DNA of 5,163 nt, from the IMG/VR virus record IMGVR_UViG_2693429601_000003; one strand, written 5' to 3'. Every line of letters starts with the position of its first letter. Within the stretch, counting starts at the first letter, position 1. Both the position numbers and the translations under genes were made by a program. The stretch is from a virus (taxonomy: Duplodnaviria > Heunggongvirae > Uroviricota > Caudoviricetes). Positions 1 through 4,293 of this stretch are shown here, piece by piece. The notes beneath the pieces are model-generated. The model saw nothing but the letters and a program-made list of their open reading frames with translations. It had not been told where the DNA came from and made no database searches.

Positions 1-115
1 GTCGCTGGTCGCTGGTCGCTGGTCGCTGGTCGCTGGTCGCTGGTCGCTGGTCGCTGGTCGCTGGTCGCTGGTCGCTGGTCGCTGGTCGCTGGTCGCTGGT
101 CGCTGGTCGCTGGTC
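1..115. repeat. Perfect tandem heptanucleotide array (GTCGCTG)x16 plus a partial 17th unit (GTC); abuts the window start so true length is unknown
   Basis: Read directly: 16 identical 7-bp units at 1-112, then GTC and divergence (TGGCA). No stop codon in any of the six frames across the array. Confidence 0.95.
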
Positions 116-124
116 TGGCAGCAT
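1..124 (-). CDS. Partial ORF (start in window, 3' end beyond window start) encoding MLPD followed by heptapeptide repeats (QRPATSD)n; hypothetical repeat protein
   Basis: Minus-strand ATG at 124..122 preceded by AAGGA with 7-nt spacing; reads in frame straight into the heptamer array. A second ATG at 132..130 in another frame has a poorly spaced SD. Product unrecognised. Confidence 0.25.
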   Translation of the reverse strand, partial: MLPDQRPATSDQRPATSDQRPATSDQRPATSDQRPATSDQR

Positions 125-171
125 AAAATCATCCTTTTATGAAAATCAACGTTTTTTGAGCACTCGCACAC

Positions 172-215
172 AAAAAATTACCGCATTGGTTGCAACGACA
201 ACCTTCATTTTGCGG
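172..215 (-). terminator. Candidate intrinsic terminator at the 3' end of the hok transcript
   Basis: Minus strand: CCGCA...TGCGG stem (with nested GGTTG/CAACC hairpin) followed by TAATTTTTTG; lies about 85 nt downstream of the hok stop. Confidence 0.3.
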
Positions 216-298
216 AGCATATGACAAATAAAGTACGGGTGCGTTGAGGATGCCAGACACATCAGAGGTGGCGGGAGATTACTCCCCTGCCTGGTCTC

Positions 299-454
299 TT
301 ACTTCTCAGATTCGTAGTCTACGAAGACAGCGACCTCCGTCTGGCCGGTTCGGATTCGTACCTCGCAGAAGTCTTTCCTCGTTACCAGTGCTATCACTAC
401 GACGGTAATACAGATGACGATCAGGGCGATTAACATCGCCTTTTGCTGCTTCAT
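299..454 (-). CDS. hok: Hok/Gef-family type I toxin (small membrane-active host-killing peptide), 51 aa
   Basis: Hand translation gives MKQQKAMLIALIVICITVVVIALVTRKDFCEVRIRTGQTEVAVFVDYESEK, nearly colinear with HokD/RelF as I recall it. AAGGAG sits 5 nt upstream of the ATG; hydrophobic N-terminal helix followed by conserved C...C periplasmic tail. Missing from the ORF track, presumably because of its size. Confidence 0.85.
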   Translation of the reverse strand: MKQQKAMLIALIVICITVVVIALVTRKDFCEVRIRTGQTEVAVFVDYESEK

Positions 455-457
455 AGC

Positions 458-511
458 CTACTTCTCCTTGCCTTTCGGCACGTAAGAGGCTAACCTAAGT
501 TTGTAAGTCAT
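458..511 (-). CDS. Possible 17-codon leader ORF (Mok-like coupling peptide) ending 3 nt before the hok start
   Basis: ATG 511..509 with GAGG 8 nt upstream; encodes MTYKLRLASYVPKGKEK; its TAG stop (460..458) lies inside the hok Shine-Dalgarno. Speculative. Confidence 0.2.
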   Translation of the reverse strand: MTYKLRLASYVPKGKEK

Positions 512-575
512 AGATTTGGCCTCAGATTAATGTTAAGCGTCCTGCAAGACGCGTAATGTTAACTGGGGCTTTTCT

Positions 576-611
576 CTGTCTGCCTTACGGCTGCATGCCC
601 GAGGCAGACAG
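576..611. other. Stable stem-loop in the Q-hok intergenic region (9-bp perfect stem CTGTCTGCC/GGCAGACAG, 18-nt loop containing a GCATGC palindrome)
   Basis: Inverted repeat 576-584 / 603-611 read directly. No U-tract on either strand, so probably not an intrinsic terminator; could be an RNA element of the hok leader or part of the Q utilisation/late promoter region. Confidence 0.3.
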
Positions 612-653
612 CCTCAAGCACCCGCAGCTATTCTACAGTAAAAACTCGCGCTT

Positions 654-1079
654 TCAATTTCCCGCACGTCCGGCAAACTGACTGGCCTGTGATCCTGATG
701 GTTCACGCTCAACGTACCTGTCCATTTCCAGCTTTACTCCCTGCATGATCAACATCCCCTCAATAACACCTTCTGCTTTTTGCAGTACCCGCCCGGCCCA
801 GCAATCAGAGCGCCCATGCTTACGGCCCAGTGACATAAGCGTCATCCCGAACACATAATAATCATACAGAAAATCATGCAAATCGCTGTTGTTGACGTTC
901 AGTTGCGCCATGCAATTGCTGATAATCAGCGCATCGTCATCGGTACACTGAGGCCGTGATTTAACCTTTGACGGGATCAGCCCCTTAAATCCGGCGGCAA
1001 TGGGCGACCAGCTCACATCCTCATGATTATTGGCCACCCATGCGCCCCAGCGTTCAAGCACCTGCTGAATATCACGCAT
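654..1079 (-). CDS. Phage antitermination protein Q (QuuD-like family), 141 aa
   Basis: [22 protein letters not shown]... matches what I recall of the DLP12 QuuD-type Q antiterminator. I place the start at the internal ATG 1079 (SD-like AAGGGGAAAG upstream, 8-nt overlap with the ninH stop) rather than the track's 1163, which would overlap ninH by 92 nt. Confidence 0.85.
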
Positions 1080-2670: not shown

Positions 2671-3348
2671 TCAGTAGCGATGCAGTGAAGGCGGCAACTC
2701 TTTGTTCTTAAGCCTTACCCATGCGGAAAGGTTCGTTGGTCCGTCTGGCTCATTAATATCAACATCTCGTGTGTGGTTGATTAAAACATCTCTCGCCATT
2801 CCGATAACATACGAAAACTCATGACCGTAGTCGTAGCATCTGCCGGAATAGTTCGATTGAATTTGTTTTAGCGCCGGATACAGTTCGCGGAATAATGCCT
2901 GTGAGCGGTTAGCATAATCCCATAACCATACAAGGCTGTTTGCTTCTTTTGCGGAAAGCTCGTTGGTGCTCTTCTCTTGTTTGCCAGTATTTTTCTTGCA
3001 CTGGCTGAAATAGCAGTCTTCCAGTTTTTCGAACACATCCCACGCCTGATCGGTTTCGAGCATTTTGGCGTGACGGGCTGCTCCGCGTTCTGTCCAGAGG
3101 ATGAGGGAGCGGGCATTTTTACCAACTAACCCGATTGTTTCGGGTCTGTTCTTAAACTCGCGTAATTCGTTTTTTTCAATTTTAAAGTAATGCTTTCCGG
3201 GCATGAATCGCGTCGTGTTGTTCAGAAAGTTATCAGAAATGTTTTTGATTTTTGTTCCGTAAAGGTGAGCCAACAGTTCAGTAGTAATTACGGGGATCTG
3301 GTTATAGGTAACAGGGGAAAGGTTTTCGACAGAAATTTGAACAGCCAT
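2671..3348 (-). CDS. ORF6N-domain protein (antirepressor-like N-terminal DNA-binding domain) with an unrecognised C-terminal half
   Basis: N-terminal [48 protein letters not shown] fits the ORF6N pattern; residues ~120-225 have no match I recognise. GAGGT SD 4 nt before the ATG at 3348. Confidence 0.8.
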
Positions 3349-3389: not shown

Positions 3390-3431
3390 GGTGCTAATCA
3401 TCGTGGTGGCGAACTGTGCGGGGTTAGCACT
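3390..3431. promoter_or_regulatory. Candidate operator: imperfect inverted repeat GGTGCTAATC-N22-GGTTAGCACT upstream of the ORF6N gene; a third direct copy of GGTGCTAATC lies at 3555-3564
   Basis: Exact 10-mer GGTGCTAATC occurs at 3390-3399 and 3555-3564; an inverted 8/10 copy at 3422-3431. A weak sigma70-like pair on the minus strand (TTAGCA at 3397..3392, A-rich -10 around 3375..3369) overlaps the motif. Confidence 0.25.
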
Positions 3432-3512
3432 ACCGGTCGAAACATCCGGCGAGCCTTTCGGCTCCCCCACACAGCCCGCCATAAATCGCGAATGTGACTG
3501 TGCTTAGCGCAT

Positions 3513-3533
3513 AAAAAAACCGCCAGCGCGGTT
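3513..3533 (-). terminator. Candidate rho-independent terminator downstream of ninE
   Basis: Minus strand reads AACCGC-GCTG-GCGGTT followed by seven T; short stem, so moderate confidence. Confidence 0.4.
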
Positions 3534-3623
3534 ATGCACCGTTTCGATATCCGGGGTGCTAATCCCGACGCCAGATTTTGCTGGCGCGTGAGGAATATAG
3601 CCCCGAATAAATCATCGCGTCAA

Positions 3624-3806
3624 TCACCTTGTTTTCCTCGCACGATGTCTTAGCCACCGGATATCCCACAGGTGAGCCGTGTAGTTGAAGGTTTTTACGT
3701 CAGATTCTTTTGGGATTGGCTTGCGTTTATTTCTGGAGCGTTTCGTTGGAAGGTATTTGCAGTTTTCGCAGATGATGTCGGTGATGCTTCTTTGCTGTCG
3801 CCTCAT
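3624..3806 (-). CDS. ninE: NinE, 60 aa
   Basis: [60 protein letters not shown] resembles lambda/DLP12 NinE. Start at the internal ATG 3806 with CAGGAGGG SD; ATGA overlap with the upstream dam stop. The track's 90-aa call is an upstream extension. Confidence 0.85.
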
Positions 3807-4293
3807 GCCGCCCTCCTGACGCCCTGCCCGATCGCCATCAATGCCGCTTTGGATACAGTAGTAAACATTCGTCGAGGACTGATGAACGGTCGCCAAATCA
3901 GCAGCATGGAGCCTTTGCTGTTTCCCTTCTTCTCCAGCCCTGTCGATGGTTCGATAAAATTAATCCGTCCATCAGTGATAATGCGAACTTCGTCGACACT
4001 CTCCAGAGCCTTGCTGAACCATCCGACTGACATATCCTCTGGCACAAGCATCACTACCGTCTGTCGCTGTTGTATGCACTGCTCAGCGGCTTTTTCCACC
4101 CACGGCCTGATATTGCTGTACGGTGGGTTATTCCAGATTGCACCGTGGCTTATCCACTCAGAATTTAGCGCGTCGTCGGCCTCAGTTAAGAATCCAGCCA
4201 GAATCCAAACTCAATATCCAGTGCATCAAAAAGCCAAAGCGGCGTTTGCCAGCAGTCCTTGTCGTGTGATGGCGTATTTGATTTGATAGTCAT
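3803..4293 (-). pseudogene. Dam-family (phage-type) DNA N6-adenine methyltransferase, disrupted by a frameshift
   Basis: ATG 4293..4291 (ATGA-coupled to the ninB stop, AAGGGAGAG SD) opens a 35-codon frame MTIKSNTPSHDKDCWQTPLWLFDALDIEFGFWLDS that stops at 4188..4186. The catalytic part (…AIWNNPPYSNIRPWVEKAAEQ…VVMLVPEDMSVGWF…, NPPY motif) continues in another frame from 4210 to the stop at 3805..3803. Confidence 0.6.

What the first reader, a model, noticed from the sequence alone, without database searches (positions are those of the whole stretch)
299..611. Unannotated Hok/Gef-family toxin gene immediately downstream of Q, with a leader ORF and structured leader
A 51-aa ORF invisible to the ORF track encodes a near-canonical Hok/Gef toxin with a strong SD. 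It sits where lambdoid phages normally place the Q-dependent late promoter and qut site, so late antiterminated transcription would be expected to run into it. A 17-codon upstream ORF terminates inside the hok SD, which resembles the Mok-type coupling used in hok/sok loci, and a 9-bp stem-loop (576-611) lies in the leader. I could not identify a convincing antisense (Sok-like) promoter or terminator on the plus strand, so the antitoxin RNA is undefined here.
Basis: partly seen in the sequence, partly recalled or inferred. Interest (0 to 1): 0.6.

Follow-up and report, generated by a model that had tools for sequence, protein, structure and literature searches.

The report
Prophage hok/sok toxin–antitoxin locus beside Q
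The small gene is real: it belongs to an ordinary, already catalogued hok/sok toxin–antisense-RNA module, about 92% identical to the studied hokW/sokW of Shiga-toxin phages, carried as cargo between the phage Q gene and its late promoter.

Summary
Window 299..454 (-) encodes a 51-aa Hok/Gef peptide (Pfam E=7e-22). The leader 449..623 (-) matches Rfam RF01794 (118 bits, E=2e-27). Window 229..636 is about 92% identical to hokW/mokW/sokW of phage 933W/Sp5, an experimentally shown type I toxin–antitoxin system.

All regulatory parts are present:
- a promoter whose -35 contains the Q stop codon;
- a 5' element (tac) that pairs with a 3' element (fbi);
- a terminator;
Its -10 is the TAACCT box that was mutated experimentally in sokW.

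The 17-codon upstream ORF is mok cut short by a CAG-to-TAG change. Whether Hok is still translated is uncertain.

In relatives with the same junction, the canonical 933W-type pR'-qut-tR' lies 3.8–4.5 kb further downstream. It follows hok/sok, a heptamer repeat and a restriction-modification gene pair. Q-dependent late transcription therefore starts beyond hok and runs away from it. Only early read-through via Q can enter it.

RefSeq already annotates this exact protein. Interest is low.

The parts
630..657 (-). hok promoter: -35 TTGAAA (657..652), 16-nt spacer, -10 TAGAAT (635..630). The Q stop codon TGA (656..654) lies inside the -35 hexamer.
   Evidence: Consensus scan gives 10 of 12 matches. 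The -10 and everything downstream are homologous to the hokW promoter of 933W. AATTGAAA-N16-TAGAAT is conserved after three Q alleles.
455..623 (-). hok mRNA 5' leader. The predicted transcription start is G623 (GGGUGCUUGAGG...).
   Evidence: Rfam RF01794 covers model positions 1-157 on 623..449, at 118.4 bits, E=2e-27. The model lies on the hok-mRNA sense strand and ends at the hok AUG.
612..623 (-). tac-like 5'-terminal element (GGGUGCUUGAGG).
   Evidence: In the MFE fold it pairs with 249..237: 12 pairs with one bulge at C243. The element is invariant across 13 distinct alleles.
576..611 (-).
   Evidence: Rfam structure line and MFE pairs such as 611-576 and 610-577.
458..511 (-). mok remnant: a 17-codon upstream ORF (MTYKLRLASYVPKGKEK*). 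Its own GAGG SD is at 523..520. The TAG stop at 460..458 lies 3 nt before the hok AUG.
   Evidence: Homologous to the first 17 codons of mokW; the CAG codon of 933W and of the other Q-linked alleles is TAG here.
497..524 (.). Hypervariable zone, which is both the Sok 5' tail and its target around the mok start. It is the presumed specificity determinant.
   Evidence: The minority-base fraction is 0.15-0.30 here against about 0-0.07 in most of the leader and the hok gene. Sok differs from SokW at 7 of 22 positions in the tail and 3 of 49 elsewhere.
299..454 (-). hok coding sequence (51 aa plus stop). Its SD AAGGAG lies at 469..464.
   Evidence: Pfam PF01848 E=7.1e-22. 47 of 51 residues are identical to HokW. 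RefSeq WP_000813244.1 is annotated 'Hok/Gef family protein'.
237..249 (-). fbi-like 3' element (CCUCAACGCACCC), complementary to the mRNA 5' end.
   Evidence: MFE pairing table. Conserved in hokW, whose homology ends just after this element.
172..215 (-). Putative intrinsic terminator of the hok mRNA: CCGCA...UGCGG compound hairpin followed by UAAUUUUUU.
   Evidence: MFE fold and the sequence itself. Conserved in the Q-linked alleles but not in 933W. Not flagged by the simple scan because of its large loop.
468..496 (+). sok promoter: -35 TTGCCT (468-473), 17-nt spacer, -10 TAACCT (491-496).
   Evidence: Sequence identical to 933W over this stretch. Replacing TAGGTTA with CCGGCTC on the sense strand, which alters this -10, made the 'promoter-less' sokW construct in PMC8621323 (primer YO-421). 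Positions read. Too weak a consensus match to be flagged.
503..573 (+). Sok antisense RNA, about 71 nt: a roughly 15-nt single-stranded 5' tail, a long hairpin, then GGGGCUUUU.
   Evidence: Coordinate transfer from the sokW misc_RNA of AF125520. Fold of 503..578 is -29.4 kcal/mol, z=-5.3.
654..1079 (-). Neighbouring Q antiterminator gene (141 aa) of the Q21/933W family. It is context, not part of the toxin-antitoxin locus.
   Evidence: Pfam PF06530 E=8.8e-48. 73% aa identity to H-19B Q, whose gene Neely & Friedman 1998 report as identical in 933W (recalled, not read). Homologous to the solved Q21 structure, PDB 6P18, E=4e-8.

Best explanation
Window 172..657 is a structurally complete hok/sok-type type I toxin-antitoxin locus. 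It is a close paralogue of hokW/sokW of Stx phages 933W/Sp5. It is carried as accessory cargo in the gap between the phage Q gene and the Q-dependent late promoter.

Proposed working (steps 1-6 are inferred from the R1 hok/sok and Sp5 hokW/sokW paradigms; step 7 rests on gene order seen here):
1. A constitutive promoter (657..630, minus strand) makes an mRNA of about 450 nt.
2. The 5' end of that mRNA (623..612) pairs with a 3' element (249..237). This keeps the full-length RNA closed and untranslated.
3. Slow 3' trimming opens the RNA.
4. The convergent 71-nt Sok RNA (plus strand, 503..573) then pairs with the region around the mok start. This blocks translation of the upstream ORF, and with it Hok, and marks the duplex for RNase III.
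5. When the short-lived Sok is no longer replenished, ribosomes translate the 17-codon mok remnant through the hok SD. This could happen on loss of the element or on prophage induction.
6. Ribosomes terminate 3 nt before the hok AUG and start Hok. Hok is a 51-aa single-pass inner-membrane peptide that collapses membrane potential.
7. Q-dependent late transcription does not reach the locus, because pR'-qut-tR' lies downstream of it. Read-through of the early rightward operon across Q can enter it in the sense direction, against the sok promoter.

The least certain step is whether this allele still makes Hok, given its mok nonsense codon.
For: - Family: Hok/Gef domain, E=7e-22, with one TM helix.
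- Leader: matches Rfam RF01794 end to end, E=2e-27.
- Closest relative: about 92% nt identity over 229..636 to the annotated mokW/hokW/sokW of 933W. Toxicity, antitoxin activity, membrane location and the sok -10 of that locus were shown experimentally (PMC8621323).
- Long-range pairing: the 5' end pairs with 249..237 in the MFE fold, z=-4.5.
- Sok: the fold has a single-stranded tail plus a terminator hairpin, z=-5.3.
- Specificity: cognate Sok tail/target duplexes are -39 and -43 kcal/mol, against -18 and -21 for the cross pairs with hokW/sokW. Divergence concentrates at 497..524. This is expected for co-resident paralogues; the median is 2 hok-like places per E. coli genome, with up to 9.
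- Position: the canonical pR'-qut-tR' is annotated in 933W. It is found 3.8-4.5 kb downstream of Q in L001, L003, L017-L022, L025, L026, L028 and L032 and is absent from the window.
- Cargo site: other Q alleles carry unrelated DNA in the same Q-to-pR' gap (L084, L047).
- Upstream ORF: in R1, mok must be translated at least up to the hok SD, and translation beyond the hok start is dispensable (PMC9841398). The uORF here does pass the SD.
Against: - No expression data exist for this locus.
- In R1, five premature stops in mok upstream of the hok start were loss-of-function suppressors. Even a synonymous change between the SD and the AUG abolished Hok translation. The CAG-to-TAG change at -6 may therefore silence Hok.
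- Sister alleles in the same Q-linked position carry independent hok frameshifts (+T and -T) and a Q4* nonsense codon. Hok function at this position is thus often lost.
- The sok promoter is a weak consensus match and was not flagged by the scan.
- The window itself stops in the heptamer repeat. The downstream position of pR' is therefore inferred from relatives with an identical or near-identical junction, not seen in the source genome.
Confidence: 0.75

Rival explanations
1. Silenced relic. The locus is a hok/sok module by descent, but this allele no longer produces Hok. The mok nonsense codon uncouples or weakens hok translation. The locus then persists as a neutral passenger, like most chromosomal hok loci of E. 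coli K-12.
For: - Every allele linked to the 100%-identical Q carries the TAG.
- R1 deep mutagenesis recovered five stops in mok upstream of the hok start as suppressors of toxicity. It also found that changes next to the hok SD block translation (PMC9841398).
- Sister lineages show at least three independent inactivating lesions in hok itself.
- Own knowledge: Pedersen & Gerdes 1999 reported that the K-12 hok loci are inactivated.
Against: - The stop lies after the hok SD and only 3 nt from the AUG. That geometry favours termination-reinitiation.
- The R1 data say translation up to the SD is what matters.
- The hok ORF, SD, tac/fbi pairing, sok promoter and Sok hairpin are all intact here.
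- The TAG-bearing alleles are nearly clonal (99.7-100% identical), so intactness or decay carries little weight either way.
Confidence: 0.35
2. Late-operon leader. The promoter at 657..630 is the Q-dependent pR' of this Q allele. The hok mRNA would be its short terminated transcript, like lambda 6S RNA or StxS, and Q would drive read-through of the hok terminator into the late genes.
For: - The promoter sits at the same offset from the Q C-terminal codons as pR' does in 933W, with the same 16-nt spacer (read).
- This Q allele's 3' end was never found without hok: 29 E. coli genomes covered at least 80% of that query, and the listed examples are among the Q-hok records.
- The promoter spacer is unrelated to that of hokW.
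- The transcript ends at a terminator, as a tR' would.
Against: - A well-conserved canonical pR'-qut-tR' exists further downstream in all relatives (TTTACAATCGTAAAAATC..TATCAT..GTGGTTACATTGCC plus terminator). The same motif serves Q alleles that are 72-79% identical to this one.
- From the -10 onward the sequence is hok leader, shared with hokW, which is not next to Q.
- The initial transcribed region has no good -10-like pause element. The best candidate is GAGGCT, 2 of 6 matches (read).
- In a third Q allele the AATTGAAA -35 lies outside the Q ORF, so it belongs to the hok side of the junction.
Confidence: 0.05
3. Chance small ORF with no toxin-antitoxin identity.
For: None beyond the fact that 51-aa ORFs are common (one search lists 20 ORFs of at least 20 aa overlapping the first 1.2 kb).
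Against: Pfam E=7e-22 and Rfam E=2e-27. About 92% identity to an experimentally characterised locus. Conserved after three Q alleles.
Confidence: 0.01

Closest known systems
hokW/mokW/sokW of Stx2 phages 933W and Sp5 (AF125520; Takada et al. 2021, PMC8621323)
   Same: About 92% nt identity from the -10 box to just past the fbi element (window 229..636). Hok is 47/51 identical. The sok -35 and -10 and the Sok terminator hairpin are near-identical. The hok SD, the tac 5' end and the fbi element are the same.
   Different: - Position: directly after Q and before pR', co-directional with the early operon. In 933W, hokW lies at 58.4-58.8 kb of the 61.7-kb record, on the strand opposite to Q and stx.
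- mok: cut to 17 codons by CAG-to-TAG. mokW is a 70-codon in-frame extension of hokW.
- Sok 5' tail and target: differ at 7 of 22 positions.
- -35, promoter spacer and 3' terminator are unrelated.
hok/mok/sok of plasmid R1 (paradigm type I toxin-antitoxin system; Gerdes laboratory; PMC9841398)
   Same: Same gene family (PF01848) and the same leader RNA family (RF01794). The architecture is the same: tac/fbi 5'-3' pairing, a GAGG mok SD, an upstream ORF read through the hok SD, and a convergent short antisense RNA with a 5' tail plus hairpin.
   Different: - Per PMC8621323, HokW is only 44% identical to R1 Hok.
- In R1, mok overlaps hok out of frame (own knowledge). In the hokW group it is in frame, and here it is truncated.
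- The Sok hairpin carries a 16-nt insertion relative to the Rfam consensus.
- This locus is prophage-borne, not plasmid-borne.
Chromosomal hok loci of E. coli (hokA-E; gef = hokC, relF = hokD)
   Same: Same family. 4691 of 5426 complete E. coli genomes have at least one 80-95% match to this query. Several phage records label the hokW homologue 'RelF' or 'gef homolog'.
   Different: Those loci are in chromosomal or other prophage contexts. Only 30 genomes have this Q-hok junction. NCBIfam HokA and Hok-subfamily scores are below their cut-offs.
pR'-qut-tR' late-gene leader of 933W/H-19B (source of the StxS sRNA)
   Same: Like that leader, the hok transcript is a constitutive, terminator-limited transcript that starts at the end of the Q gene.
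   Different: There is no sequence homology and no conserved Q-binding or pause motif. The real pR' cassette is present separately, 3.8-4.5 kb downstream, in relatives.

Membership tests
hok/sok type I toxin-antitoxin system (Hok/Gef, Pfam PF01848; Rfam RF01794) | Small Hok/Gef-domain peptide of about 50 aa | tested here: met
   PF01848 E=7.1e-22, 77.2 bits (cut-off 22), profile positions 1-42 of 42. 47/51 identical to HokW.
hok/sok type I toxin-antitoxin system (Hok/Gef, Pfam PF01848; Rfam RF01794) | Single N-terminal transmembrane helix followed by a conserved Cys-containing C-terminal part | tested here: met
   Kyte-Doolittle 19-residue mean is 3.37 at residues 6-24. The RKDFCEVRIRTGQTEVAVF motif aligns to the Pfam profile.
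hok/sok type I toxin-antitoxin system (Hok/Gef, Pfam PF01848; Rfam RF01794) | Conserved structured hok mRNA leader | tested here: met
   RF01794 at 118.4 bits (gathering 59), E=2e-27, full model 1-157 on 623..449.
hok/sok type I toxin-antitoxin system (Hok/Gef, Pfam PF01848; Rfam RF01794) | Long-range 5'-3' (tac/fbi) pairing that locks the full-length mRNA | tested here: met
   623..612 pairs with 249..237 in the MFE fold, z=-4.5. This is a prediction only.
hok/sok type I toxin-antitoxin system (Hok/Gef, Pfam PF01848; Rfam RF01794) | cis-encoded antisense Sok RNA with its own promoter, a 5' single-stranded tail and a terminator hairpin, overlapping the mok translation start | tested here: met
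   Maps to 503..573 (+) from the 933W sokW annotation. The promoter is identical to the mutationally validated sokW promoter. Fold z=-5.3. Expression itself could not be tested.
hok/sok type I toxin-antitoxin system (Hok/Gef, Pfam PF01848; Rfam RF01794) | [quoted passage not shown] | tested here: inconclusive
   The mok start and SD are present, but the frame stops after 17 codons, 3 nt before the hok AUG. It passes the hok SD, which R1 data say is the requirement. However, stops upstream of the hok start were suppressors in R1.
hok/sok type I toxin-antitoxin system (Hok/Gef, Pfam PF01848; Rfam RF01794) | Toxicity of Hok and its neutralisation by Sok | not testable with these tools
   Shown only for the 92%-identical hokW/sokW (PMC8621323).
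Q-dependent late transcription unit (pR'-qut-tR' of the Q21/933W family) | Conserved promoter/Q-binding motif TTTACRATCGTAAAAA...TATCAT directly after Q | tested here: not met
   No match in the window other than one chance-level 3-mismatch hit inside another gene. The motif lies 3.8-4.5 kb downstream of Q in relatives.
Q-dependent late transcription unit (pR'-qut-tR' of the Q21/933W family) | Sigma-dependent pause element (-10-like hexamer) in the initial transcribed region | tested here: not met
   The first 25 nt of the hok leader (GGGTGCTTGAGGCTGTCTGCCTCGG) contain only GAGGCT, 2 of 6 matches. 933W has GGTTACATT there.
Q-dependent late transcription unit (pR'-qut-tR' of the Q21/933W family) | Q-dependent read-through of the downstream terminator | not testable with these tools
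   Needs in-vitro transcription or a reporter assay.

The most novel reading that the evidence does not exclude
The Q-to-pR' gap of this phage lineage is a cargo slot. It holds a two-part selfish or defence cassette: a hok/sok module with private Sok specificity, and next to it a BcgI-like restriction-modification gene switched on and off by a 7-nt repeat.

Hok expression would be wired to prophage induction by early-operon read-through. That read-through enters hok in the sense direction and collides with the convergent sok promoter. This would be a concrete mechanism for the induction-dependent loss of Sok RNA that Takada et al. saw for hokW and left unexplained.

In this reading the mok TAG converts an in-frame Mok-Hok extension into a clean termination-reinitiation upstream ORF.
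Probability: 0.2. Interest if true: 0.45.

Novelty: already known. Interest (0 to 1): 0.22.

Why it matters
It matters little as a discovery. The family, its mechanism and even a 92%-identical phage copy have been characterised, and RefSeq already names this exact protein.

Three things are useful:
1. The antisense RNA and all RNA elements, which are not annotated in the RefSeq or phage records examined at this locus, now have coordinates.
2. The late promoter of this phage lineage is not next to Q. It is displaced by about 4 kb of cargo. This affects how Q-to-stx/lysis 'pR' regions' are read in comparative work.
3. The natural mok nonsense allele, together with the independently broken sister alleles, gives a ready-made test of how far mok must be translated for Hok to be made.

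Tried and rejected
1. The hok promoter as the Q-dependent pR'. I pursued this because the -35 sits at the same offset from the Q C-terminal codons as in 933W, and because this Q allele is never found without hok. I rejected it for three reasons:
   - the canonical pR'-qut-tR' lies downstream in all relatives;
   - the hok leader has no pause element;
   - in a third Q allele the -35 lies outside Q.

2. A hok-less copy of this Q allele, sought to recover an ancestral pR'. None was found: the only full-length matches to this Q allele's 3' end in complete E. coli genomes are 29 records, the listed ones being Q-hok records, and the only full-length phage match also carries hok.

3. The simple promoter/terminator scan. 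It flagged neither the sok promoter nor the hok terminator. Both had to be placed by homology and folding.

4. Literature on this arrangement:
   - The pR'-region comparison paper (PMC6266700) does not mention hok, gef, antitoxin or methyltransferase.
   - A search for PhiR12_3 found nothing useful.
   - PMC9841398 does not list the positions of the five mok stop suppressors in its text, and its supplements are not held. The effect of a stop 3 nt before the hok AUG therefore stays open.

5. L001 shares the 601-base query (window 120..720), which covers hok/sok and the 3' end of Q, at 100% identity. It is not the source genome: the window diverges from it further upstream.
Full report
**Orientation.** All genes of the window lie on the minus strand. 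'Downstream of Q' therefore means towards lower coordinates.

Gene order, from high to low coordinates (Pfam):
- DUF7301, Lar, NinB;
- a frameshifted Dam-like methyltransferase and NinE;
- an ant-type gene (ORF6N/P22_AR_C) and a KilAC antirepressor;
- NinG and NinH;
- Q at 654..1079, Pfam PF06530.

Q is 73% identical to H-19B Q. By recollection of Neely & Friedman 1998, not read here, the 933W Q gene is identical to it. Q is also homologous to the solved Q21 protein. The window is therefore the nin-Q end of the early rightward operon of a lambdoid prophage.

**Observation check.**
- The 51-aa ORF at 299..454 (-) is present. It matches the Hok/Gef family over the whole profile (E=7.1e-22).
- It has one strongly hydrophobic N-terminal helix.
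- Its SD is AAGGAG, 9 nt upstream of the AUG.
- The 17-codon upstream ORF (511..458) and the hairpin at 576..611 are also present.
- One correction: the upstream ORF's TAG stop lies between the SD and the AUG, 3 nt before the AUG, not inside the SD.

**What it is.**
- Rfam family RF01794 ('sok') matches 449..623 on the minus strand end to end (118.4 bits, gathering score 59, E=2e-27). The alignment ends at the hok AUG. As built, the model therefore describes the hok-mRNA leader strand. The real Sok RNA is its complement.
- BLAST against phage genomes shows window 229..636 is 91-92% identical to the mokW/hokW/sokW locus annotated in phage 933W and VT2-Sakai/Sp5.
[quoted passage not shown] HokW arrests growth and localises to the inner membrane. 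sokW RNA counteracts it. A mutated sokW -10 abolishes protection. Prophage induction removes sokW RNA and allows HokW synthesis (PMC8621323).

**The missing antitoxin.**
- Transferring the 933W sokW coordinates through the alignment places Sok at window 503..573 on the plus strand.
- Upstream lie TTGCCT (468-473), a 17-nt spacer and TAACCT (491-496), with G503 seven nucleotides after the -10.
- The stretch is identical to 933W. Primer YO-421 of PMC8621323 shows that the 'promoter-less' sokW mutant replaced exactly this box: TAGGTTA to CCGGCTC on the sense strand.
- The RNA folds into a single-stranded tail of about 15 nt, a long hairpin and GGGGCUUUU (-29.4 kcal/mol, z=-5.3). This is the classical Sok shape.

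**Other RNA elements.**
- The hok promoter is TTGAAA-16-TAGAAT at 657..630. The Q stop codon TGA (656..654) lies inside the -35.
- The predicted 5' end, GGGUGCUUGAGG (623..612), pairs with CCUCAACGCACCC (249..237) in the minimum-energy fold of the full transcript. There are 12 pairs and one bulge; overall z=-4.5.
- This corresponds to the tac/fbi lock described for R1 (PMC9841398).
- A compound hairpin followed by UAAUUUUUU at 215..172 is the likely terminator.

**The upstream ORF is a truncated mok.**
- In 933W and in the other Q-linked alleles, mok starts at the same AUG and runs in frame into hok: 19 + 51 = 70 codons.
- In the window and in all alleles linked to the identical Q, codon 18 is TAG instead of CAG.
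- In R1, mok must be translated at least up to the hok SD, and translation beyond the hok start is dispensable. However, five stops upstream of the hok start, and even a synonymous change next to the SD, abolished Hok production.
- The stop here lies after the SD and 3 nt from the AUG. That geometry favours termination-reinitiation, but this is inference.
- I put the chance that this allele still makes Hok at a little over one half.
- Sister alleles at the same position carry a +T frameshift, a -T frameshift or a Q4* nonsense codon in hok. Loss of Hok function at this site is therefore common.

**Specificity.**
- Across 13 distinct alleles, divergence peaks at 497..524, the Sok 5' tail and its target around the mok start. 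The rest of the leader and hok are nearly invariant.
- Sok differs from SokW at 7 of the first 22 positions but at only 3 of the other 49.
- Cognate tail/target duplexes are -39 and -43 kcal/mol. Cross pairs are -18 and -21 kcal/mol.
- Most E. coli genomes carry several hok-like loci (median 2, up to 9). This pattern fits diversification that avoids cross-talk. That is inference.

**Where the late promoter really is.**
- The 933W record annotates pR' (TTTACG-16-TATCAT, overlapping the end of Q), qut and a terminator directly after Q. The window has no such motif.
- In a genome that matches window 120..720 (hok/sok plus the 3' end of Q) at 100% (L001), a promoter scan found TTTACA-16-TATCAT plus the same terminator 4.4 kb downstream of Q. 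Alignment shows this is the 933W pR'-qut-tR' cassette, followed by the same methylase remnant and the ileZ-argN-argO tRNAs.
- The same holds for phage PhiR12_3 and for every IMG/VR relative with enough flank. The distances are 3.8-4.5 kb.
- The order is therefore: Q; hok/sok; (GACCAGC)n; N6-methyltransferase gene with S subunit; pR'-qut-tR'; tRNAs; nanS-p esterase; holin.
- The motif TTTACRATCGTAAAAA...GTGGTTAC is shared by Q alleles only 72-79% identical to this one. This Q most likely uses it too.
- Other alleles carry unrelated DNA in the same gap: a reverse-oriented 148-aa ORF in L084, and 3.9 kb in L047. The Q-to-pR' interval is thus a cargo site.

- Q-modified polymerase starts beyond hok and moves away from it.
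- What can run into hok is read-through of the early operon across Q. No terminator separates Q from the hok promoter.
- That transcription would be sense to hok and convergent with sok. It could contribute to Sok loss on induction. This is inference and is untested.

**A rival I took seriously.** The hok promoter sits at the same offset from the Q C-terminal codons as pR' does in 933W. This Q allele's 3' end is found at full length only in 29 records, the listed ones being Q-hok records. That suggested a hybrid promoter that might respond to Q. I reject it, at about 5%, for three reasons:
- the canonical cassette is intact downstream;
- everything from the -10 onward is hok leader shared with the non-Q-linked hokW, and it has no -10-like pause element;
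- in a third Q allele (75% identical) the AATTGAAA -35 lies after the Q stop, so it belongs to the hok side.

**Distribution and annotation.**
- The Q-hok junction occurs in 30 of 5426 complete E. coli genomes, 16 of them at 99% identity or more. These include O111:H8 strains.
- It also occurs in phage PhiR12_3 and in 24 of the 80 IMG/VR loci kept, representing three Q alleles.
- RefSeq annotates the CDS as 'Hok/Gef family protein', WP_000813244.1.
- The RNA parts are not annotated at this locus in the RefSeq and phage records I examined.

**Verdict.** The feature is real and correctly recognised as Hok/Gef. It belongs to a known, characterised family and is already in the databases. The suggested link to Q-dependent late transcription does not hold. 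Interest is low (0.22). The modest points of novelty are the placement between Q and a displaced pR', the natural mok nonsense allele and the private Sok tail.

Noticed in passing
window 1-124 (minus strand: ATG at 124..122, repeat at 115..1); also L001 8597-9230, L003 6597-7186, L005 3598-3722: There is a perfect heptanucleotide tandem repeat, (GTCGCTG)n on the plus strand and (GACCAGC)n on the coding strand. The window shows 16.4 copies before it is cut off.

An ATG with an AAGGA SD just upstream of the repeat opens an ORF that runs through it. Across relatives the copy number ranges from 3 to 89. When n mod 3 = 0, the ORF continues for 693-840 aa into the downstream N6-methyltransferase gene, which has a weak N-terminal VRR-NUC-like hit, looks BcgI-like, and is followed by an S subunit. 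When n mod 3 is 1 or 2, the ORF stops soon after the repeat.

This is the signature of repeat-mediated phase variation of a restriction-modification enzyme in an E. coli prophage. The RefSeq 'YXWGXW repeat-containing' and 'hypothetical' proteins on the opposite strand are probably artefacts of the repeat. Many IMG/VR contigs break at this repeat.
   Followed up: partly
outside the window; L001 12442-12519, L003 10400, L022/L025/L026/L028/L032; compare L008 3167-3249: The canonical 933W-type pR'-qut-tR' cassette is displaced 3.8-4.5 kb downstream of Q. The Q-to-pR' interval holds different cargo in different Q alleles: hok/sok plus restriction-modification genes here, a reverse 148-aa ORF in L084, and 3.9 kb with STnc100-like RNAs in L047.
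   Followed up: partly
window 3402-3600 (-): Three Rfam hits above gathering score lie in a row: c4-a1b1 targets (3548-3600), isrK (3513-3587) and C4 antisense RNA (3402-3486). They sit just upstream of the ORF6N/P22_AR_C ant-type gene (2671..3348). This looks like a P1/P7 immI-like antisense module controlling an antirepressor inside the nin region.
   Followed up: no
window about 3806-4293 (-): The phage Dam-like N6-adenine methyltransferase gene is split between two frames. Residues 1-35 are in frame -1 and residues 43-175 in frame -3, with the junction near 4189-4204. The gene is intact in L001. This is either a pseudogene or a sequencing error.
   Followed up: partly
L005, L006, L007, L020-L022, L027, L028 (hok region): Sister Q-linked hok alleles carry independent inactivating lesions: +T after codon 9, -T in codon 30, and a CAG-to-TAG change at codon 4. 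Promoter, leader and sok stay conserved. Hok may be counter-selected, or dispensable, at this position.
   Followed up: partly
window 654-657: The Q stop codon TGA is embedded in the -35 hexamer (TTGAAA) of the hok promoter. Q and hok therefore have no intergenic spacer and no terminator between them.
   Followed up: yes
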